A DNA stretch of 64,000 bases. It comes from Podarcis gaigeae. Taxonomy: Eukaryota. A program made the translations under genes and the position numbers. The stretch is taken from NCBI GenBank assembly GCA_964106915.2, contig OZ066924.1. One strand, 5' to 3'. Shown piece after piece: positions 967 to 49,679 of the stretch; within the stretch, counting starts at the first letter, position 1; each line of letters opens with the position of its first letter. Under the pieces are notes generated by a model. The model worked only from the letters and a program-made list of their open reading frames with translations. It made no database searches and was not told where the DNA came from.

Positions 967-1153
967 TACATGGGTCAGGTTATCTCGATTCAGATCCAGA
1001 GGTAGTAACCCTTTTGTCTAAAGAAGGATGGAGAAGTGAGATCCCAATTTCTCCTCTTCTCCACTCCTTACGTTTTGCCCCGTTGATATTTATTCTCAGG
1101 GTGATGAGCAGCCCTCCCCGTGAGAGAACTCTATTTGAAGGGAGCCTCTACTC

Positions 1154-1289
1154 CAGTGTTTCCCAACCTTGTGCCTCCAGCTGTTTTTGGACTACAATTC
1201 CCATCATCCCTTGCCACTGGTCTTGCTAGTCAGGGATGATGGGAGTTGTAGTTCAAAAACAGCTGGAGGCACAAGGTTGGGAAACACTG
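1154..1289. mobile_element. Palindromic hAT-type MITE
   Basis: CAGTGTTTCCCAACCTTGTGCCTCCAG...CTGGAGGCACAAGGTTGGGAAACACTG; near-identical to the copy at 49413. Confidence 0.85.
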
Positions 1290-12819: not shown

Positions 12820-14704
12820 GATGAAAGAAAATTTATGCAACGGTGCCCAAGGTTTTGAGGTGAAATTATTTTATAAACTTGAGACAGGATGTAAAAACTT
12901 TTGAAAGCGAAAACGGAAAAAGGACCAGAGTATATACAAAAAGAATTTTAATGACTCTGAAGCATTAAGACCTCCTTCAGAATGAATGTTGTCACTCAAT
13001 TCATGTGTTCAACTTTTTGAGGACAGTGAAAGATTGGTGCTTTATATACAGTATTTCAAATTCTACAGGAAGTTTTAACCCATTCACAGAAATGCCTTTT
13101 CTCTGACTACTGGAAAATCAGTATGCTATTTGTGAATGAGCTTAAGGAACAATTTAAAGGATATTCAAAGAGGCTGAGATTCAATGAGTTACTTTAGGTT
13201 CATATATGCCCAATGGAATCTTACACATTTTACTTAAATGTGTTAAAAAAAAATCAACAGACTCCAACCCCTCCATATCAAAACTATGCTTTTTACATTT
13301 TCATTTTCTTTGGAGGTTTATTGCTATGTGGCAAGTGGCCAGGGCAGTGGTGTCCAAAGGGTCATGTAACTAATTTCACAATTATTTGGTCTGCAGCCAT
13401 ATAAGAAATACTGAGAGTAAGGAGGAGGAGGAAAAATCAGTGGTCATGGGGCAAAATCTGGACCAAACTCTGGGGAAATGAAACTTCCAACAGAGCTAAA
13501 CACCCAGCATGATAATTTTCTATCCTTGGGACAAAATGTATTGTTCACTTTTTAAGAACTGTTCATGCTTCATGTATAGCGATGGCTATTCATTACACCT
13601 TTTCAGATGAAAGTATTTGCATTTTAGACATATTAGCGGGCAAGTATCTTCTTAAACCAGATGCCTATTGATATTTTGACAAGCCATTTTTTCAGAAGAA
13701 ATATGAAATAGTGAATTACCCATTTCCAATGTTTGCTTCCGATTGCTTTGCACATTTTCTTCTTTTTTTTTCCGTACAGCTCTAAAGATTTTAAATTACG
13801 ATTATTTAGAAACTCTTCTCCCTTAATAGAATTTGAGTAACCTGGATTAAAGCTGATCTATACACTCGGCAGAAAAAAATAAGTCTATTTACAAAGGTGC
13901 AAACTTTAATTGGTTAAAAAAAAAGGTTAGGAGTAATATAGTTTGGTAGCCTCACCAAACAAGGCTTATAAGACCGATTCACAAGGAGCTAATGGATGTT
14001 CTCCATGAATACTATGTTTTAAACCTTGTAGGCAGTCAGAAAGAATGAAGGTTTTTTTAGTATAAAAAAACCATACTAGCAGGATATTCAGTAGGCTGCA
14101 TACTAAATAATGCAGTACTGTATTATATGATAATACCTGCCATATGCAGGATTCCACAGGCAAACTTGTAAATAATTCAAGTGAAGAAAATCATAACTCC
14201 AAATTGAAAATTGGTTGTTAGAGGTAGAAGAATCATTCCTCCTTTGGCTAAAGTGAAATAGAAGGGTTTCTCCACCTCCCAAAACTGTGAAATAATTTCT
14301 AGCAGATGGGAGTCTTCCTTCCCACTACTAGCTTGCTGAAAGGCCCTATAAATATTCAGTTGTTGGCCATGCTCTTTAGCTGTTAGAACTAAAACTTGAC
14401 GCTCAAGCTCCTCCACTTTTAGTACTACAATTTATTTTGCAAATTTAAACAAAAATTTGTCATCCACACCACTGTCTGTCCAGGCTGACAAGACCTGCTT
14501 CTGCCTATTTTGCTTGCCAATGCCTTCCCCTTAGCTTGGATAGCTCTGGTGGATGTTGAAATCACCAGTCCTACCATGTGTAATATGTCCAGTATCACAC
14601 ATGAACACAACCAACACCCTTTCATACGTCAACAACAATTGCTATCCACATGATAAAAAAATTCCTTCCAGTAGCACCTTAGAGACCAACTAAGTTTGTT
14701 ATTG

Positions 14705-14742
14705 GTATGAGCTTTCGTGTGCATGCACACTTCTTCAGATAC
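14705..14742 (-). ncRNA. Minimal type I hammerhead ribozyme (intact) in PLE pseudo-LTR
   Basis: Minus strand GUAU-CUGAAGA-A-GUGUGC AU GCACAC-GAAA-GC-UC^-AUAC: full core, stem II, palindromic AGCU stem III, 4-bp stem I. Confidence 0.85.
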
Positions 14743-15350
14743 ACTGAAACAGAAGTCACCAGACCCTTATATGGGGAGGGGTATTACTCAGAAGGGTGGT
14801 GGGAATAACACCATTACTGGCCCCAACAACATCAAACATACCATCTCGGGACTCTTTAATTGCTCATCTTCTAACATTGTGTATGCCATCAAATGCCAAC
14901 AGTGCCCTTCAGTTCTCTATATTGGACAAACAGGCCAAACCCTACGCCAAAGGATAAATGGACATAAATCGGACATCAGGAATTACAAGACAGAGAAACC
15001 AGTAGGAGAACACTTCAGTCTCCCAGGACATTCTATACAAGATCTCAAAGGAGCTGTCTTATTACAAAAGAATTTCAGAAATAGACTGGAAAGAGAACTT
15101 GCTGAATTGCAACTTAATACCAAACTTAAAACCATGGAGAGACCTGGTCTGAATTGAGACATTGGATTCTTATCTCATTATACATGATGAAGCCATCTCA
15201 CCTCTTGCTTTTTCCTATAAGACCAATTGCAGTCATTAACAGTTGTCAACAGGTCTACCACACCTATCAACCCATTCCCACTACCCTTCTGAGTAATACC
15301 CCTCCCCACCCTCTAACTATATATAGGGGTCTGGTGACTTCCGTTTCAGT

Positions 15351-15388
15351 GCATCTGAAGAAGTGTGCATGCACAGGAAAGCTCACAC
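15351..15388 (+). ncRNA. Minimal hammerhead ribozyme (degenerate) in PLE pseudo-LTR
   Basis: GCAU-CUGAAGA-A-GUGUGCAUGCACAG-GAAA-GC-UC-ACAC: core kept, but stem I has two mismatches and the stem II closing pair is G.G. Confidence 0.7.
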
Positions 15389-18150
15389 CAATAACAAACT
15401 TAGTTGGTCTCTAAGGTGCTACTGGAAGGAATTTTTTAATTTTTTCCCCCCAACTACGACAGACCAATACGGCTACCTATCTGTAACTATCCACATGATA
15501 CATGTGTAAGCAGCCTTGCTTGCTTATATGTAGAATTTTTTCTTTCTTTTTAAACATGTTTTAGTAGCAGCAGGAAAAACTGTGGGCTGGTATTGGGGAG
15601 CCAGTGACTAGTGAGAAGAGAAGGGAATCAGGAAAGCTGATGGCATGACGATGGCATCTCAAGGAATAGGGCCGAGCAACTTCGTAGGACCACTATCCCA
15701 CATTTAGCAGCTTTTCCAGTTACAAAATTGTGTTTTCATTTATTGGAGGGAAGCAGGTTATCTGCTGTTACATATGATGTGAACTGGAATATCTGACACT
15801 TTGGGATTCAGACCTCAGCCAAGATTCACTTTGCCAAGATCAGTTCTAACAAAGAAAGGTACTAATTCATGAAGATTCATGGCAGCTTGGAAGATTTTCT
15901 TGTGGTTTTTGGAACACACGAGGAATTAATGGGCTACATCTTTTTGCGAGAAACTAATCCTTTTCCCTTCCAGCTGCATGACACAGAGATAGATTTTCTT
16001 CACTTTTTTTGGCAGGCCCTTATTCGGACTATAGCACAGAAAATGTTTCTAATTCAAATATTTCACATTTAGATGAAAGGGATTTTAAGGGTAAACTGAT
16101 TTCCCCCCCAGTCACCCTTTTTGTACCTCCCCATAGGTTTAGTTGGAGATAACTGAAGTACTATACGCTTACAAGTGGTCTACCCTGTGCCTTGCATCAA
16201 AAACATCATTTTCACATTCCAGATACTACAAAGGTGCTTACATATTTTAACTTGAATTGAAATAAACAGTTTTCTGTCAGGAAATTTATAAGCAACCAAA
16301 TGTTACAAATTTAGTGAAGAGCCACTCTAACTTCTTGCAAGGAATTCTAATATTTACTTCATTATTTTTTTCAAAGAGCCTTGCTTTTAAAATCTTTGCA
16401 TCTTTCTCTGAGAAGTTATTTATAATTATTCATACACTAGCTTTGTTTTCTTCATTGCACTTCCATATTCTTGTTTAATTCTTGTATCGTGGTTGCAGAT
16501 TTATGTGAAAATGACCTGAATAAATTTGTTTTTCAAATGCTCAGAACGTCTCTCCAGCTTTCACCAAAATCTTTCTTACAGGTTAAGAGGAATCTCTATA
16601 TACATGATTGTATCATTCTTCTGTATGGGGGAAGCATTTCATTCTCTAAAAAATACAAACGTGATACTTCAGATGCAAACCTTAGATAATTTTGTAGTTA
16701 CCCTGCGAGGGAAAGGAGGGTCAACCTAAGAGAGCTAAAGGAGTTTACAGAAGTCATCACACATGGATGAGGAAAATTATATAAGCAGAAAGTTTGCTAA
16801 TCCTAATAGCTAACAGACCATATCGAGCTTGGAGAACAGACTATAACAGGGCTGCCTCTACTTTTCAGAGGGAAAGCTTGTAAAAATGCTACTAATTATG
16901 CATTATGACAAGATTATTATGGGACAAAGCTCATAGGATAAAAATAACAGTGATGTTCATGCCACAAGACTAGCCAGATAGTCAATGGGTCTTCAATAGG
17001 CTAGTTTATTGTCCTGTATCACCATTTTAGTAAGCCTGTCTGGAAACTTACTTTGAGTTCAAATGTATCCTTGAGTTCAGAATGTTTCTATTTCTACAAA
17101 ATGCGATACAGTATAAGACAGACTTTTGTATCAATACAGTATGACCACAATGGAATCCTAGTCCTCCATGCGCCCAAAACGCCGCTAAACAAAAACATTC
17201 AATAATGTATTTTAAGGTTGCTAGATTTTACTTCTATATTGGTGCTTTTCAACTGGTGCTACGTCTCTGTATGTCTTGCAGTTTTAAAAACACTGGTTTA
17301 TCTGAATAGAAGAAAACAAGAGATGTGATTTACATTCACCTGGTATTGCCCTCCTATGTAGACAAAGTCTACATAGCTCGTTCCTTAGATCAAAAGCTTT
17401 GCTGTAAATCCAGCACTTTTAAAAATGCTTTGATGTGCTAGACACCCCATAGGAATACTGCTAGGGTCATAAGTTATAGCAGTAAGAAATTCTCTCCTGT
17501 TCATCAATTGCCAAGAAAAACTAAGCACTCTTGGCAGTCCAGAGACATGTAAAGAGATGCTACCCAAGCTATGAAGTTTTCAAGTTTCTCTATTTTCAAC
17601 TAAAACAGGAAAAGGCGTTATCTTATTACTTTGTATGTAGTGTGCAAGTTTTCTTTAGCCATTCACAACTTGTTTTTACCCAATGGAAAGATGTTTATCA
17701 ACTAGAGAGATTCAGGGCATGTTGTGTAGTTGTAAATTTAGGAAAATGAGAGACTAAATAATAAAGGGATAGGAAACCCTATTATTGGGCTAGCATTAAC
17801 TTATGTAATATTTTTCTCTCCAACATGCATGTAAAATGGGGAAAGGCTTTTAAAGCAGTGGAGCCACTAATAGTTACAGCTTGTTAAGACGTAGCTTGAA
17901 TCCCAAGAGTAATGAAGGACCATATGAAAATAATTTCTTTTGGATGTAAAAGACAAATCCTGCAGTATTATAAGCAAACAGCTACACCCTACTTTTTCAA
18001 TTAATGCACTCTAGATAACCAAAAGAATTAACTGATCTGAAAATAGATGACATTCAATTCAGTCAAATGCCCTTCTAATCTCAGAATATCAAGACACAAA
18101 TGAATGAAACCATTGGACAGTATAGATACAAATTTCTGACTTTAACAGAT

Positions 18151-22832: not shown

Positions 22833-23565
22833 CTTTTCACTGATTTGGACTTATTTGTTTCTGACAGTGAAGAGTAAAACATGGATTCTAGCTTCATTGT
22901 TTTTGAGCTTTGATTTTGGCCTTTTGCATCTGTGTCCTGGGCTGTGTCAGACTGCGAGCCCTTTTTGAGCTGGATACATTTGCCTTTCTGGTCTGTAGGT
23001 AATGAAATATCAGCTGCTCCCTTCTTTTTCTTCCTTCTCTTTACTTTGCCAATGAAGAAGTCATCATCGCTATCATTTTCATCAGAGCCAGAAGACTGAT
23101 TATAGAATCTCTCTTCAGTGCTGTCATCAAAGTATTCCTTCTCCATTCCAGCTTCCTCACTTGTCACTCTATCAGGTGAATCAACTTCTGTTCTACTCAG
23201 GAGGTCATCCAAACATTTTGTGACTTCGGAATATACTGACTTTTCTGCTTGAGCCTGAGCAGCTAATTTATGATGCTCTGCAGCCTGCACTGTAACATTA
23301 TCCAACAGGCATATTTCCTCACCGTCTGCCATTTTCAGCTTCTCTCTCACACAAATTTGTTCTTTTCCCATGTCAGAGCCTGGCTTCTCTTTCACCTTTA
23401 TTTTGTCTTGGTTTCCAGCTTGTTTAATTGTTTTCTTATGTAGACTGCTACTGGAATGCTGGGTTAGCTCAGATTGTTTGGTAAGTTGTTCTTCCGATTT
23501 ATGCTCTTCTGAAGAAATGGGTCCTGCTGGCTTCTGTCTCGCATCTTTGAAGGCTTTTACAGCAG
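22833..23565 (-). CDS. SRFBP1: SRFBP1 exon 6 (large low-complexity exon)
   Basis: tttttag|CTGCTGTAAAA...GTGAAAAG|gtaag; 733 nt; AVKAFKDARQ...EKEYFDDSTEERFYNQSSGSDENDSDDDFFIGKVKRRKKK...KLESMFYSSLS, within ORF 22829..23728. Confidence 0.95.
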
Positions 23566-24088: not shown

Positions 24089-24260
24089 AATACATGGCCC
24101 AGACAGGGTCTGTGTTAGGGAAGGCAGTTTTCTAGAGGAATATGTTTACATCAAGTATAAGGCATCTGACCAACACCTTTACAAGTGTGCCCAAGTCATA
24201 CCCACTACTAAGCCTGGATCTATGCACATCAAAGAAGCGTTTCAGTTTAAAGCGTTGTAA

Positions 24261-24462
24261 ATTTAAACAGGGAAAGCAGGTAGAGAAAAAGGGGGCTCCA
24301 CATCGCCATCTGGTGGCACAATGTTATATCGCACACCCAACACATATAAATCACTTTTTTTTTTACCCGTCTAGCTGAGTCCTATGTCTGCTATAGGATA
24401 TAGGAAGCCTTCTCACCCACACAATTTGGATTCTACATCCAGTTCACTGAACCATGCACCAA
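24261..24462. repeat. Donor copy of a 202-bp inverted duplication (contains CTCF motif)
   Basis: Exact reverse complement of 25332-25533; it does not resemble a recognisable transposon. Confidence 0.92.
24301..24319 (-). promoter_or_regulatory. Candidate CTCF site
   Basis: Minus strand GTGCCACCAGATGGCGATG, a close match to the CTCF core consensus CCAC/GYAGRKGGCRS. Confidence 0.65.
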
Positions 24463-25331
24463 GAGGCACTGGAAAGGTAGTCAGGAGTATAGGACTGCAG
24501 GAGTGTTTGGACTTTTTACTCAATGGCTCCCGGTAACAATTATGCTATGGGATGGCCCTCAGTCTCTCATTAAATTCAATGGGACTTTCTCATGGGTAAG
24601 TGTGCGTAAAATTGAAAGCTAGTAACTTTTTACCTAATTAGAAAGGTATTAGAAGGCACTTAAGCATATTCTTACAGCTACTGGAGAAAGACAACTGAAA
24701 AATTTAAAGGAAGTTAAAGATGACCCCAGTGATTCAAGGCTGCAAAACTCCAAGTCTCTCCAAGTAACAGAGTAAAGACAGAGGTGGGGGAATTAGAGAC
24801 TCTTTCTTTTTCAGGGCTCTCAGAATGAAAAGATAAATTACCAAGAAAAATTGGCTGCAAAAGTAGACACACTTACTTAGTCACAGGCCCTACTGAGCAT
24901 AGTGAGATTACTTTCAATCACACACAGACTTAAACAGTTCATGAAGATCTCATTCTTAAAGCCTTTAAGTAAAAACTGAACTGCACATGTCTTGCTTTAA
25001 CAGTATGCATTCATTGTTCTACCAGAACCTCCTGAATCATTGTTTAATTTCACTAGTTTAGCAACTATAGAAATAGCAAGAGTGGTGATTATGAGTCAGC
25101 GTAACCCCTCAACTTGTTGGTATGAGTAACAATACATACGTGCAATAGTGGACATGGTTGTAGAATAGCCCTGAAAATCTTAAGACACACCCAGAAACAT
25201 TTGGCTTATGAGCGTGCTAGGCATCTGTAGATGAACTGCTTTTGAGATCTCTCTCTCCCATTATTTCAGGTACACAGAATACAATACATTTAGCTTACTT
25301 TTGCAATAGTATTTACTATTGCAAATACTAT

Positions 25332-25533
25332 TTGGTGCATGGTTCAGTGAACTGGATGTAGAATCCAAATTGTGTGGGTGAGAAGGCTTCCTATATCCTA
25401 TAGCAGACATAGGACTCAGCTAGACGGGTAAAAAAAAAAGTGATTTATATGTGTTGGGTGTGCGATATAACATTGTGCCACCAGATGGCGATGTGGAGCC
25501 CCCTTTTTCTCTACCTGCTTTCCCTGTTTAAAT
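25332..25533. repeat. Inserted inverted copy of 24261-24462, flanked by a 35-bp direct duplication
   Basis: TTACTTTTGCAATAGTATTTACTATTGCAAATACT occurs at 25295-25329 and again at 25539-25573. Confidence 0.92.
25475..25493 (+). promoter_or_regulatory. Candidate CTCF site (duplicated copy)
   Basis: GTGCCACCAGATGGCGATG on + strand. Confidence 0.65.
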
Positions 25534-25624
25534 AGTATTTACTTTTGCAATAGTATTTACTATTGCAAATACTCAGTTTGAGAAGGTCATCAATGCCTAG
25601 ACACACTGCAGCTTAAGACAATGA

Positions 25625-25725: not shown

Positions 25726-25807
25726 CTTTAATATTGGCAATTTTTGTCTTCAGTAGTGGGTGTGTTGTCAATCTAGCAACGGCTCTTTCTTTTACTGTAG
25801 AATTAGG
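25726..25807 (-). CDS. SRFBP1: SRFBP1 exon 5
   Basis: tgcag|CCTAAT...ATTAAAG|gtaag; 82 nt; PNSTVKERAVARLTTHPLLKTKIANIK. Confidence 0.93.
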
Positions 25808-34989: not shown

Positions 34990-35922
34990 CTTTCGTAGAT
35001 TTTCACGGGTACAGGAATGCAGGTTTTGGTGTCCTCGGGTGTCTTCCCGTGTAAAAGTTGGGGTGTCTAGGCGACGTTTCGACGAGGTCTCACTCGTCAT
35101 CTTCAGGCTGGTGCTTTCGGCTTCTTGTTACTGGAACAGAGCGGGATCTCAATGTTTGAGTTCCTATAAATACTGTAGAGGGGGTGTGGTGTCTAGCCTC
35201 CAATGTTCTGGGCAGAGAGGAAGTTCCCAGGCTAGTGTGCCTTTTCTTCTTTTGTTCCTTAATTACTTGAGAGATACCTTGAGTGATTTCTTGAGTGAAA
35301 ACTGACACCAGATCCAGAGGCACACAGAACGCCAACACCAATCAACCACACCAGACCCAAACCCAGACCCTCTCCACAGATGAATTACTGACACCATCCA
35401 GTAGCCAATCCATGGTGGCACCTCCGGATGCTGCACCCCCCTGCAATCCCTACACAGATCTGGCTGACACAAGCCACAAAACCACAGCTCGCCCCTATAC
35501 ACGAAGCCAAGCCAAAGCACAACTAAGTGCAATACAGCCATCTTCTCAGGAAAACTCTTCACAAAGTTCAAGAGGTCAAGACACAAAGACTTTAGCAACT
35601 AATCCACACCTAATGACCCACCTAAGTGGTACTCAGGATATCACTCAAGAAATCACTCAAGGTATCTCTCAAGTAATTAAGGAACAAAAGAAGAAAAGGC
35701 ACACTAGCCTGGGAACTTCCTCTCTGCCCAGAACATTGGAGGCTAGACACCACACCCCCTCTACAGTATTTATAGGAACTCAAACATTGAGATCCCGCTC
35801 TGTTCCAGTAACAAGAAGCCGAAAGCACCAGCCTGAAGATGACGAGTGAGACCTCGTCGAAACGTCGCCTAGACACCCCAACTTTTACACGGGAAGACAC
35901 CCGAGGACACCAAAACCTGCAT
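34987..35922. mobile_element. Second-family Penelope-like insertion with 282-bp perfect inverted pLTRs, within a (TA)n microsatellite
   Basis: 35017-35298 is the exact reverse complement of 35641-35922 (the ORF track shows mirrored identical peptides). Each arm carries a hammerhead core. (TA)n lies on both sides. No RT or EN coding sequence was recognised, so the PLE call rests on architecture. Confidence 0.8.
35831..35868 (+). ncRNA. Minimal hammerhead ribozyme motif (mirror copy at about 35071-35108 on - strand)
   Basis: GC-CUGAAGA-U-GACGAG UGAGAC CUCGUC-GAAA-CG-UC^-GC: core, 6-bp stem II and palindromic ACGU stem III; stem I is short (2 clear bp). Confidence 0.75.
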
Positions 35923-39924: not shown

Positions 39925-41266
39925 TATTTGCAGACAAATTCATACCTAACTTTGAACCATAGGAGGCAGATTATTCTTGAAATTTCTTTAGCTTTAATGG
40001 TCAGCTGTGTTGATACTGATGTGCGCTTTAACTGCTGTTAAGGCAGGAAGAGTGAATTTGTTCCTTGCCAGGACCATGGAATCTTATGGCAAGTTCCCAA
40101 TTTCTTAATTAGGGTTTGCAGATCATAGGCAACATTCAACTAATACACAATATCAGCAGATCCATGGAAATCAATGAACTTAAGTAACATAAGTCCACTG
40201 ATTTCAATGGGTCTACTGTGAGTAGGGATTAGCTGGGCATCACCTCAGCTCTGTTACACTGGCCCAGAATGCTCATTTCAGAACAGTGACATGGGTTTAC
40301 ATAAAAACTTGTAACATGTCATGTGATGTGAAATAGGATAAATTGAATCAATGAAGGCCAAATAATAGTATTACTGTAATCCACCCTCTTTTTCTACAAA
40401 TACATCTTTATGTCCAGTTTGGACATCCATAAAATAAATCACGTACAGAGGAAGAACTAGCAAGGTTCATAGCGTTCTTTGTCTCTTTCCTGTATTTTAA
40501 AATAAATGTTTTATACAGTTCTGGCAAAATGAAGCCTGAAGAATCTAAAAACAGTTTTCTGTTCCAATAGCTTCAAGAACTCCTGCAAACAATTAACCCA
40601 GTTTTTTCATCCACGTAGCTAGAATTTTTAACCAATGTTGTTTGCCTGCAAAGAGGATATTTCTAGCTTTTGAGTTTGGAATGTTTGGGATTTCTGAATC
40701 ATCTGATTACTACATATGCCTATTAGTCCTCTTTTAATAAATATAAAGTGCAAATATCAAGGGGGAAAGCCCCTTGGACCAGACCACACTGATGTCATAA
40801 GAACAAACCTGCCATAGAGAAAAACTTTAATCTTTTTAACAGTTAGTGACAGGACTTCTCAAGTTCCATCAAATACATACCATCCTCTGGCTGGTATTCA
40901 TTTTTTAAGCGCAAGTGCCTAAATCTTATTGGGTACCATACACAGTGACTACTGAACAATTCTTCATATGTAACTGTTAGCACCTAGCAGAATGTTTTAA
41001 CCCCAAAAAGTATTTTACATTAAAATAAAAAAACAGGTAAACTCACAGCCCAACATGACATGAGATTAAGAGTGCTCGACACACAGCGGTCTGTATTTCA
41101 AATTTTATATAATGCAAGTTACGTTGCAAAATAGAAATGGTTTTTTTCCAAGCTGAAGCTGTTTTTGCCCCTGAATCTATTTCGAAATCTGTTTCGCAAA
41201 GAAACTTCATGTTTACATATGAAAGAGGTACAAACATAATGAACTTCACCTAGAAAAAAGCTTGAC

Positions 41267-41402
41267 CAGGCATAGGCAAACTCGGGCCCTCCAGATGTTT
41301 GGCACTACAATTCCCATCATCCCTAGCTAACAGGACTAGTGGTCAGGGATGATGGGAACTGTAGTCCCAAACATCTGGAGGGCCCGAGTTTGCTTATGCC
41401 TG
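41267..41402. mobile_element. Palindromic hAT MITE
   Basis: CAGGCATAGGCAAACTCGGGCCCTCCAG...TTTGCTTATGCCTG with 8-bp TSD AGCTTGAC. Confidence 0.9.
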
Positions 41403-46006: not shown

Positions 46007-46789
46007 TATATGAACACTAAATTCTAACCAGAGAACACCACCAGATCTAGACTTTGTTCTCACTGATGGATGAACGGAGGTGATATGCCAATTTCTCCTA
46101 TAGCACCTCACACCCTCGAGGTAGGGAGGATTGGTAAATACTGCCTCTCCCTCCCCTTCCATTAATAGGAGCCCTCTGCTGGATCAAAAGTACACAGATG
46201 GAAGCTCTTCCATTCACAAAAACGTAAGTTTGGATCCAACTCAGTGAAAAGCTGCTATGTGGCAATGTGCGAATGCGTGTGTGTATCTAATTTAATTCCA
46301 CCATGATCAAAGCCGATTTGGATATAACGGTGTTTTTTGAAGCCTACCTCACAGACTCAATGCTAGAAAGGAACTTGGAATGCATTTTAAAGTAGCTCTT
46401 TCAGCTTACTCCGTATTTCTATTTACTTGCCTGGAGAGCTGCTGGTGCCAATTTTGCAGGGAGAAGCAGAACAAGGAGCTCATTTCTATCTTTCTCCAGG
46501 AAGATAGGGAAGGCCTCTGTGGGAAGCAAGTGGCTTTCAGAAAACTGGTACATCAGTTAACTGACAGTCAAATAATATCAAAGACTTCCCATTTTATTAT
46601 ATGACCACAATGAAATATCCAATGAAGTAAAAAATGCCACTTTGAAAGTGGCACCTGTTTGTAATAGAGTTATAGGGTCATTTGTTAACAAGGACAGAAG
46701 TGAGGGATTTACACTACAATGGTCTGAGGGGTGGGGAGCTAGTAGTAGAACAAAGTTTCCTGCACTACAGTATCAGCTACAAATGCAAG

Positions 46790-47500: not shown

Positions 47501-49412
47501 ACAAATAAGTAAAATGTCACTATTTCCTCCCCTAAGACCCGAGAAAATATTTATTAATATTACTTGATATGGGAGGGGTACTTTATTATTCAAATTCCGA
47601 CTCTGTAGACACTTCCTATTTGTTTAGTAGTGCGAAGTATAAGTGTAACAGCCAATTCCAAACCATCAGTCTGACCTCTTATTTAAGGTTGGGGGGAAAA
47701 GGAGTCAAGAGAATTTGCAAGGCTTGTTTTCCTTTTCCTTGTGACAGTCTCCAAAAAGACAGCCTCCCTCTGGGAAAATGCACCCCATGTGGAACAAATA
47801 TTGATGTAAAATGATACTAAAACTAAAACCCTTTAAAAACAGTTTATTGCAAGGTAGAAGTGTTTGCATATTTGAAACCAATTGGGTCAGGAATTAGAAA
47901 TTTGGCCAGAGTGACCGTGTCATGCTACGGTTCCATCTTACTACCGTGCAAACAGGAAGCACTGGCTTGCAAAAACACTTCTGCAGAGTCAAAATTTAAA
48001 TAAACGATGCCTGTAATAGCAAGTGATTGTCCATAAATATTATCCCTGATAGTGTTTATAAGGAAAAAGGCTCAACGCACACAGCTTAAAATAAACTGTG
48101 ATGTAAAAAATAAAAATATTTTAATCGGAACTGACTAGGCCACTCTTTTAAGTACGGATATGAAAATGGAGTTTATAAACAACAAGTACTCAAACTGAAC
48201 TTGGGGTTCCCATCAGTTGTTTTTGGCCACCCTAGATAAATGTTTCTCTGCCAAAACTTCAGGGCCAAACAAGGCCCATCTTCTTTCCTGCACCTGCCCA
48301 TCCAACCTGTTCCAACCAGATTTCCAACGTTATCCTAAGGAATCAGGTGCTCAGACTTGTACATCTGACTTGTCACTACAACACTGCTCCCCAACAAGGG
48401 ACTGTGCCTTGGATTTTGACACGTCTGCAGCTGTTAATACATTCTCTCTAGCCGGAATAGCTGCACAAGTTCAATTCTTGCCTGTCACAGATCTGGCTAA
48501 CTGACGGCAAACCCACCTACTTCCATGGATACGTTAGCTGATATAGATGAAAAGTTCACAAGCTATAATAAAAACAACAACAACCAGGCACAGGCAAGGC
48601 CCACAATTTAGAGAATCACAGCAGATCATTACGTACTCAAACATATATTTTTAACTTCCTATCCAATATTTAATTTATTCTTTCCAGGACTACGTGTGGA
48701 GACATAGTATATTTTTAGGAACCCATTTAACCAAAGGTCAACTAACTGCTGGCCATGAATGCAAGAAAGAGGACACACCCTGTGGCGTAAGAACATATGG
48801 ACATGTTATCTTATACTGATTTGGCACATTAATCCAAATCAGTATAATGTGGAAAAATCAGCTGGTGTCCAATATCTCCAGCAAGCTTATTTCAACCAAT
48901 ATGCTTCCAATTTCTCCTTTTTCCTTTTTACTCATCTTCTAAACACGTGTTTGGATCAGCAATGAGAGAGAGTAAAGGTAATAAAGTGGTGCCCAATCCA
49001 GACAAGATGGAGGCAGAGTTCTCTGGAAGTGCAGTTTACTAAATTACTGGGATTTCCCACAGCCTGACAGAGCTATTAGATCTGACCTTGCATTTAGATG
49101 CCGAAGACTGGTTCAAAGAGGATTTCACTGGCTTCGGTGGGGTGTTAGCTGAAGCCACTTCTGGGTTAGCAGCATGAATGCAGTGAAAATTGTATGAATA
49201 CAATTGTATGATTCTGTAACTGCAAGACCTATTTGTGCTCACCAAACTGGAGGAAATAGCAGAAGGGAAAGGAGCCAAAGACTTTTCCTTTTCCATGCAA
49301 GAGGGCTTACCTACTGTTAACTGCGCATGTATGTGTCTCCTGAATCATTATGAGCTCAGGCACGTCAGCGATGCTGTAGCAGCTGAACAGCTGGCCTTTT
49401 TGTGCAATACAT

Positions 49413-49548
49413 CAGTGTTTCCCAACCTTGTGCCTCCAGATGTTTTTGGCCTACAACTCCCATCATCCCTAGCTAGCAAGACCAGTGGTCAGGGATGATG
49501 GGAGTTGTAGGCCAAAAACATCTGGAGGCACAAGGTTGGGAAACACTG
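49413..49548. mobile_element. Palindromic hAT MITE
   Basis: CAGTGTTTCCCAACC...GGTTGGGAAACACTG with 8-bp TSD CAATACAT. Confidence 0.92.
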
Positions 49549-49679
49549 CAATACATAACCTTACATGCAATGACTTGGGTGTCTGGTGGCCTGACAGAAA
49601 ATGTGAAGGGACTAGAATGTGTCTGGCAAACCAACCAGCTTCTGCAGATCCTACCATTGCCCTCAGAGTCCTGGAAATA

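What the first reader, a model, noticed from the sequence alone, without database searches (positions are those of the whole stretch)
24261..25573. Perfect 202-bp inverted templated duplication creates a divergent CTCF motif pair in SRFBP1 intron 5
Seen: 25332-25533 is the exact reverse complement of 24261-24462, about 870 bp away, and is not a recognisable repeat. The copied segment contains GTGCCACCAGATGGCGATG, a near-consensus CTCF core. The original points left (24301-24319, towards LOX) and the new copy points right (25475-25493). Established: divergent CTCF pairs typify loop and TAD boundaries. Inference: one local repair event may have turned a one-way anchor into a two-way boundary beside LOX, and perfect identity implies it is very recent or polymorphic. 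It would also form a 202-bp duplex in SRFBP1 pre-mRNA between exons 5 and 6.
Basis: partly seen in the sequence, partly recalled or inferred. Interest (0 to 1): 0.75.

Follow-up and report, generated by a model that had tools for sequence, protein, structure and literature searches.

The report
Local repair patch copying transposon motif
A 244-base insertion in an intron, found on one of the two chromosome copies of one sequenced animal, is a backwards copy of nearby DNA that was likely pasted in while a break at a DNA hairpin was repaired, and its CTCF-like motif comes from a transposon with hundreds of copies, so it is likely an ordinary neutral variant rather than a new chromatin boundary.

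Summary
The inverted copy is real: 25332-25533 is the exact reverse complement of 24261-24462, in SRFBP1 intron 5. The event is a 244-bp insertion with a 35-bp duplication of a hairpin-forming site, and every junction base is a copy of local sequence. One sample carries both alleles (left junction seen at half depth); four other samples show empty alleles; the right junction was seen only in the assembly. 'Not a recognisable repeat' is wrong: 122 of the 202 bp, including the CTCF-like motif, are the end of a 171-bp Harbinger-like MITE. The motif occurs exactly 556 times in MITE context (about 1,600 copies estimated) and decays at the background rate, CpG included, so nothing marks the donor as a conserved loop anchor. 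Best reading: a recent polymorphic 'duplication plus inverted local duplication', likely made by resection, self-annealing and microhomology-primed synthesis at a staggered break in the hairpin, and likely neutral. A second perfect local inverted patch about 100 kb away suggests such events are not rare here. Of residual interest: a DNA-transposon family scattering CTCF-like motifs, and a natural heterozygote in which binding could be tested.

The parts
24212..24382 (+). 171-bp Harbinger-like MITE (imperfect 14-bp terminal inverted repeats, 3-bp target duplication TAA/TAT); donor element, older than the insertion
   Evidence: the orthologous donor contig of other organisms runs into the MITE part
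24261..24462 (+). Donor segment of the duplication: last 122 bp of the MITE plus 80 bp of unique flank
24301..24319 (-). CTCF-like motif inside the MITE, pointing left (towards LOX); binding untested
   Evidence: consensus pattern recalled
25295..25329 (.). First copy of the 35-bp duplicated site; holds the palindrome 25300-25325 (12-bp arms, 2-nt loop)
   Evidence: hairpin -9.4 kcal/mol, z -5.2, 0 of 200 shuffles as stable
25330..25331 (+). Left junction filler, equal to positions 24-25 of the 35-mer, reached through a 4-bp repeat
   Evidence: junction spanned by a 62-bp contig with 0 differences in run X16
25332..25533 (-). Inserted inverted copy of 24261-24462 (MITE part 25412-25533)
   Evidence: depth 56.8 against flanks 38.8 and 43.8 in X16
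25475..25493 (+). Copied CTCF-like motif, pointing right; binding untested
25534..25538 (+). Right junction filler; 25531-25543 equals positions 11-23 of the 35-mer (3-bp entry and 5-bp exit microhomology)
   Evidence: seen in the assembly only, in none of 6 runs laid
25539..25573 (.). Second copy of the 35-bp duplicated site
   Evidence: empty alleles hold it once (skip 244, 35 shared bases)
25726..25807 (-). SRFBP1 exon 5 (82 bp); its donor site is 152 bp from the insertion
   Evidence: name and number recalled
22833..23565 (-). SRFBP1 exon 6
   Evidence: name and number recalled

Best explanation
This is a recent, polymorphic 244-bp templated insertion (a 35-bp duplication around an inverted 202-bp copy of DNA 870 bp away), likely made during repair of a staggered break at a hairpin-forming site, and likely without regulatory effect because its CTCF-like motif is a passenger in a common, apparently neutrally decaying MITE. 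Shown: the structure, the empty and filled alleles, the hairpin potential, that all 279 bases of 25295-25573 are copies of local sequence, and the MITE origin of the motif. Inferred steps: (1) nicks on both sides of the palindrome leave 35-nt 3' overhangs that each fold back and so do not re-anneal; (2) the left end is resected by over 1 kb; (3) its 3' end slips on a 4-bp repeat, then self-anneals on its own strand 870 nt back and copies 202 nt, which gives the inverted orientation; (4) it is released, primes on a 3-bp match in the other overhang, copies 10 nt, and re-anneals on a 5-bp match at the tip of that overhang; (5) fill-in fixes the duplication. A polymerase theta-type end-joining enzyme is the likeliest polymerase; which nuclease cut is unknown.
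For: Structure and junctions. Empty allele with one 35-mer in runs X1, X2, X3 (3 of 4) and X17. Left junction contig in X16 at depth 22.5 against flanks 38.8 and 43.8, with graph breaks exactly at 25329 and 25332; X16 and X17 are one sample, so that sample is heterozygous. Hairpin; only one other palindrome of this size in 64 kb. A second, different indel at the same palindrome in organism D (15 bp replaced by 2) marks the site as mutable. MITE: 3-bp target duplications in 38 of 63 full-length copies against 3.5 in shuffled pairs; 556 exact motif-in-context matches, control 0. Motif decay: invariant core 18 of 354 (5.1%) against background 370 of 5,476 (6.8%), p=0.27; CpG in motif 38 of 117 against 181 of 567 elsewhere, both 32%. 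Another perfect 141-bp local inverted patch, 790 bp from its donor, lies about 100 kb away. Published models of the same geometry: 10.1101/2024.12.14.628481 (passages), PMC7025897 section 9, PMC5728401 (passages).
Against: The right junction is in no run laid, and contig X16-1 runs through the 35-mer without the break that a right junction would cause; pruning next to high-depth MITE nodes may explain it but is untested. The carrier sample may be the assembly's source, so it tests the assembler but may not be a second animal. Empty contigs do not prove absence, since X17 looks empty though its sample is a carrier. The microhomologies are short (1-5 bp) and fitted after the fact, and fork template switching gives the same sequence. 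SD-MMEJ templates are reported within about 30 nt of the break, not 870. The decay test is an average over copies with modest power and cannot exclude a bound minority. The core 10-mer is the same in all three subfamily consensuses while neighbouring segments differ, and looked best conserved in the first 22 copies.
Confidence: 0.6

Rival explanations
1. Replication fork stalling at the hairpin with several template switches (FoSTeS/MMBIR type): the nascent strand passes the palindrome, jumps to the opposite strand, copies 202 nt and returns before the palindrome. Same product, no double-strand break needed.
For: Four short-homology jumps explain every base; a hairpin can stall a polymerase (established knowledge); iterative templated insertions from nearby sequence are the stated signature (PMC5120786 passages); short inverted template switches number thousands per human genome, up to 318 bp (10.1101/2021.11.26.470150 passages).
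Against: The duplication brackets the hairpin almost symmetrically (5 and 4 bp), which suits paired nicks; 870 bp is far beyond the short-range switch model. The sequence alone cannot separate this from the best explanation.
Confidence: 0.19
2. An abortive retroelement event: a non-LTR endonuclease made the staggered cut, and the patch was copied from local DNA or from SRFBP1 pre-mRNA by reverse-transcriptase template switching, with no element body retained.
For: A 35-bp duplication resembles a long target-site duplication. The similar patch in L155 is fused to 47 bp of a repeat end. L1 insertions with 52-220-bp local inverted duplications and one co-inserted local pre-mRNA are reported (PMC10191854 passages).
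Against: No element sequence, no poly(A) tail (the only A run is internal and is copied from the donor), and neither possible nick matches TTTT/A. The hairpin already explains the site.
Confidence: 0.11
3. One reading: the donor motif is a bound CTCF anchor beside LOX and the copy adds a divergent site that changes loop extrusion in carriers.
For: Good match to the recalled core on both copies; only 4 exact cores in 464 kb; the donor keeps its CpG; repeat-borne CTCF sites are bound and act as barriers in mammals (PMC3368268 passages); young sites join clusters at boundaries (PMC6945661 passages).
Against: Family-wide neutral decay and CpG loss point to germline methylation (inference). The orthologous donor motif in organism D has lost that CpG (G>A at 25490). 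No conserved neighbouring site was found by the exact core. In mouse species, losses of single sites leave local expression unchanged.
Confidence: 0.07
4. Assembly or library artefact (fold-back chimera).
For: The right junction was not seen in reads.
Against: Left junction contig at half depth with 0 differences, 1.4-fold depth of the unit, and a junction grammar built from local sequence.
Confidence: 0.03

Closest known systems
[quoted passage not shown] 2020, PMC7025897)
   Same: Two copy gains in one locale joined by two inverted junctions on one chromosome; copy-and-paste origin (531 somatic instances reported).
   Different: Germline, polymorphic, tiny (35 and 202 bp), in a non-mammalian genome, with extra micro-slips at both junctions.
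Inverted duplication by remodelling of staggered break ends (10.1101/2024.12.14.628481; PMC10191854)
   Same: Target-site-like duplication plus an inverted copy of nearby DNA after resection and self-annealing; reported copies of 52-220 bp.
   Different: No retroelement body or tail here; the donor is 870 bp away, not adjacent.
SD-MMEJ / polymerase theta end joining (PMC5728401)
   Same: Snap-back and loop-out slips on a hairpin-forming site and consecutive rounds of microhomology priming explain the fillers.
   Different: The main patch is far longer and farther away than the roughly 30-nt range reported.
Templated sequence insertion polymorphisms (PMC5110952)
   Same: Polymorphic insertion copied from an intact donor; duplication of recipient sequence as in class 1.
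   Different: The donor is local, not distant; no poly(A), no TTTT/A site; class 2 has no duplication.
PIF/Harbinger non-autonomous elements (MITEs); family features recalled
   Same: About 170 bp, terminal inverted repeats starting GG, 3-bp target duplications often TAA/TTA/TAG.
   Different: The repeats are imperfect; no autonomous partner with these ends was found.
Repeat-driven CTCF motif expansion (B2, SINEC, MAR1; PMC3368268)
   Same: A lineage-restricted repeat carries a CTCF-like motif to hundreds or thousands of places.
   Different: Here a DNA transposon, probably in a lizard (recalled from repeat content); no binding data and no detectable constraint.

Membership tests
Local templated insertion (Dup-invDup) | Donor intact and copy gained | tested here: met
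   unit depth 56.8 against 38.8 and 43.8
Local templated insertion (Dup-invDup) | Two inverted junctions phased on one chromosome with a second duplicated segment | tested here: inconclusive
   met in the assembly; only the left junction seen in reads
Local templated insertion (Dup-invDup) | Microhomology or templated filler at junctions | tested here: met
   all 279 bases are local copies; 1-5-bp homologies
SD-MMEJ / polymerase theta end joining | Fillers templated from repeats within about 30 nt of the break | tested here: met
   both fillers come from inside the 35-mer; the 202-bp patch itself lies outside that range
SD-MMEJ / polymerase theta end joining | Dependence on POLQ | not testable with these tools
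   needs genetics
Class 1 TSIP (L1-mediated) | Target-site duplication of 5 bp or more | tested here: met
   35 bp
Class 1 TSIP (L1-mediated) | Poly(A) tail and TTTT/A nick site | tested here: not met
Class 1 and 2 TSIP | Distant donor | tested here: not met
   donor 869 bp away
PIF/Harbinger MITE (donor element) | 3-bp target-site duplication | tested here: met
   38 of 63 exact, shuffled mean 3.5, max 10; other lengths 1-9 give 0-2 of 27
PIF/Harbinger MITE (donor element) | Short terminal inverted repeats starting with GG, fixed short length, high copy number | tested here: met
   the repeats are imperfect; feature list recalled
PIF/Harbinger MITE (donor element) | Autonomous partner with DDE_Tnp_4 transposase and the same ends | tested here: inconclusive
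   12 PF13359 loci, none with these ends within 1.5-kb flanks; flanks may be too short
Functional CTCF boundary | Motif match in divergent orientation | tested here: met
   (recalled IUPAC core, no weight matrix)
Functional CTCF boundary | Sequence constraint and CpG protection of the motif | tested here: not met
   family average; CpG lost in organism D's donor
Functional CTCF boundary | CTCF/cohesin occupancy and insulation | not testable with these tools
   no ChIP or Hi-C tool

The most novel reading that the evidence does not exclude
A Harbinger-like MITE has seeded about 1,600 CTCF motifs across this reptile genome, a DNA-transposon counterpart of the rodent B2 expansion; a minority of copies are bound, the one beside LOX among them, and a hairpin-triggered repair patch has just duplicated it into a divergent pair, giving heterozygotes in which the birth of an insulator can be read allele by allele.
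Probability: 0.08. Interest if true: 0.65.

Novelty: new member of a known kind. Interest (0 to 1): 0.27.

Why it matters
As it stands it is a clean germline example of a known class of copy-and-paste structural variant, with fully explained junctions and a second mutation at the same palindrome in a related species, which is useful as a mechanism case and a marker. It would matter more if the MITE-borne motifs bind CTCF: repeat-driven CTCF spread is documented for mammalian SINEs, and my searches (listings only) showed no report for this kind of element in lizards. Heterozygous carriers would allow an allele-specific test of whether one added divergent motif alters insulation.

Tried and rejected
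Whole 24261-25533 as a transposon with 202-bp terminal repeats: rejected, since the empty allele keeps the donor and the 869-bp interior and loses only the right copy. Second MITE transposition: rejected, since the copy lacks the first 49 bp of the element, carries 80 bp of unique flank and has a 35-bp, not 3-bp, duplication. Selection on the CTCF-like core: suggested by 22 of 30 copies when subfamilies were pooled (rank 1 of 126 windows), not upheld with 63 of 90 copies and a subfamily-aware background at three clustering thresholds (p 0.27-0.61); 27 copies without a right end within 215 bp were dropped. Autonomous parent: not found. Random-donor microhomology control was chosen after seeing the junctions and is not used as evidence. 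Rfam gave nothing at gathering level in the window and only one chance-level hit at 34.9-36 kb. A genome search with the 282-bp arm at 35017 returned nothing, not even itself, so it is uninformative. Read depth over the motif was not used as a conservation measure because private changes of the window copy bias it. Three look-ups of earlier findings were empty. PMC8082928 (passages) added nothing. No supplements were read; repeat catalogues in supplements of lizard genome papers may already name this MITE.

Full report
Observation. The two arms are exact: 24261-24462 is the reverse complement of 25332-25533, 202 of 202 bases, 869 nt apart. LOX coding exons lie on the plus strand at about 2.8-10.6 kb (PF01186; motifs). 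Exons that I read as SRFBP1 lie on the minus strand; the 82-bp exon at 25807-25726 and the large exon at 23565-22833 bracket both arms. The gene name and the number 'intron 5' are recalled; Pfam found no family in the large exon. That the animal is a lizard is likewise recalled from repeat types, not tested.

The copy is flanked by a 35-bp direct repeat (25295-25329, 25539-25573) that contains a palindrome with 12-bp arms and a 2-nt loop. It folds at -9.4 kcal/mol, z -5.2, with 0 of 200 shuffles as stable; only one other such palindrome exists in the window. The whole event is 244 bp: the duplication, 2 filler bases, the 202-bp copy and 5 filler bases. With T for the 35-mer, 25295-25573 equals T1-35, T24-25, inverted donor, T14-23, T6-35, all 279 bases. 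The jumps use a 4-bp repeat, 1 bp (3 bp with a one-base slip), 3 bp and 5 bp.

Is it real and how old? Of 23 runs listed I laid 6, from 5 samples under 4 organism labels. Runs X1 (A), X2 (B) and X3 (C) join 25294 to 25539 with 35 shared bases, that is, the empty allele with one 35-mer (3 of 4 runs). Run X16 (A) has a 62-bp contig across the left junction (25300-25361, 0 differences, depth 22.5), flanks at 38.8 and 43.8, and the unit at 56.8; run X17 of the same sample shows the empty allele. That sample is therefore heterozygous. Limits: the right junction was seen in no run; the carrier may be the source of the assembly; and a carrier can look empty in contigs, as X17 does. Organism D (X4) has a third state: 15 bp of the left palindrome arm replaced by 2 bases. 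Those 15 bp are a circular permutation of the reverse complement of the adjacent 15 bp, so the palindrome may itself be the scar of an earlier templated event; without outgroups this is not polarised.

The motif belongs to a transposon. The first 122-124 bases of the unit hit 637 candidate places (40 scored; 38 non-self, 86-92% identical), whereas the remaining flank hits only the two local places. The element is 171 bp at 24212-24382, with imperfect terminal inverted repeats starting GG. Among the first 90 of 234 copies picked only by an exact left-end 23-mer, 63 were full length, and 38 of these have exact 3-bp target duplications against 3.5 in shuffled pairs. These are the recalled features of PIF/Harbinger MITEs; an autonomous partner was not found among 12 PF13359 loci. 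The motif in element context occurs exactly 556 times, control 0 (91 times for the window's own 19-mer). As 22 of 63 copies keep that 18-mer, the family has roughly 1,600 copies (estimate).

Is the motif under constraint? In 60 of 63 copies grouped by subfamily, invariant core positions differ in 18 of 354 cells (5.1%) against 370 of 5,476 (6.8%) for non-CpG background, p=0.27; tighter grouping gave p=0.61 and 0.59. The CpG in the motif has decayed in 38 of 117 cells, other CpGs in 181 of 567, both 32%. This fits neutral, germline-methylated copies (inference). Against this reading: the core is unchanged among three subfamily consensuses, an early sample of 22 ranked it first, the test cannot see a small bound minority, and exact consensus cores are sparse around LOX (4 in 464 kb; 6 matches with up to one mismatch in the window against 2.96 expected, 7 of 100 shuffles as high). 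The donor in organism D carries a G>A change at the motif's CpG. Because the donor is a lineage MITE about 6% diverged from its consensus, conservation in other amniotes is not expected (inference).

Mechanism. I favour repair of a staggered break at the hairpin: resection, self-annealing of the long 3' end 870 nt back on its own strand, 202 nt of synthesis, then microhomology-primed joining to the other overhang. [quoted passage not shown] Fork template switching gives the same product (PMC5120786 and 10.1101/2021.11.26.470150, passages). A retroelement-started event is possible (PMC10191854, passages) but there is no tail, body or TTTT/A site, so class 1 TSIP membership fails (PMC5110952, passages).

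How ordinary? In 464 kb (window plus 200 kb each side, each stretch scanned alone) there are 4 local inverted pairs of at least 100 bp and 95% identity, three of them perfect. One, L155 5547-5687, is a 141-bp copy of near-unique DNA 790 bp away, fused to 47 bp of the repeat end also seen at 35 kb. Another is a longer perfect pair in SRFBP1 intron 3. The predicted pre-mRNA duplex of our allele is thus not unusual for this gene; it begins about 190 nt from the exon 5 donor and hides no known splice signal (inference).

Verdict. Real, recent, polymorphic, mechanistically legible, and of a known kind. The boundary idea rests on a motif that the genome holds in hundreds of passenger copies. Repeat-borne CTCF sites can work in mammals (PMC3368268, passages) and single-site changes are often buffered (PMC6945661, passages), so binding remains open but unlikely to matter. 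Searches (listings only) showed no paper on this element; supplements were not read. Interest 0.27.

Noticed in passing
window 35017-35922: Perfect 282-bp inverted arms 342 nt apart between (AT)n tracts in SRFBP1 intron 3; looks like a young Penelope-like insertion with a minimal hammerhead core (recalled; Rfam gave no support).
   Followed up: partly
L155 5547-5687 and 6478-6618 (G000:C23:18443547-18444618): Second perfect local inverted patch (141 bp, 790 bp from its donor) inserted in a (GATA)n/(AT)n tract and fused to 47 bp of the same repeat end as at 35 kb; the whole pair recurs 16.5 kb away (C23:18427001-18428072), a tandem duplication or assembly redundancy.
   Followed up: partly
window 25295-25329: Organism D lacks the left palindrome arm; the arm in A, B and C is a circular permutation of the reverse complement of the neighbouring 15 bp, so two successive templated events at one site are possible.
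   Followed up: partly
genome-wide, e.g. L043-L144: The MITE has at least three subfamilies that differ in the middle but share the CTCF-like core; some copies are interrupted by other repeats.
   Followed up: yes
window 14653-15440: GIY-YIG endonuclease fragment (PF01541) between 120-bp inverted arms at 95%; Penelope-like remnant.
   Followed up: no
window 46171-46182 (-): The only other exact CTCF-like core in the window, left-pointing, near the 5' part of SRFBP1.
   Followed up: no
L176 7477-9147: 581-bp inverted arms at 96% next to an (AT)n tract.
   Followed up: no
window 1149-1289, 41262-41402, 49408-49553: Three copies of a 140-bp near-palindromic MITE with 58-bp arms.
   Followed up: no
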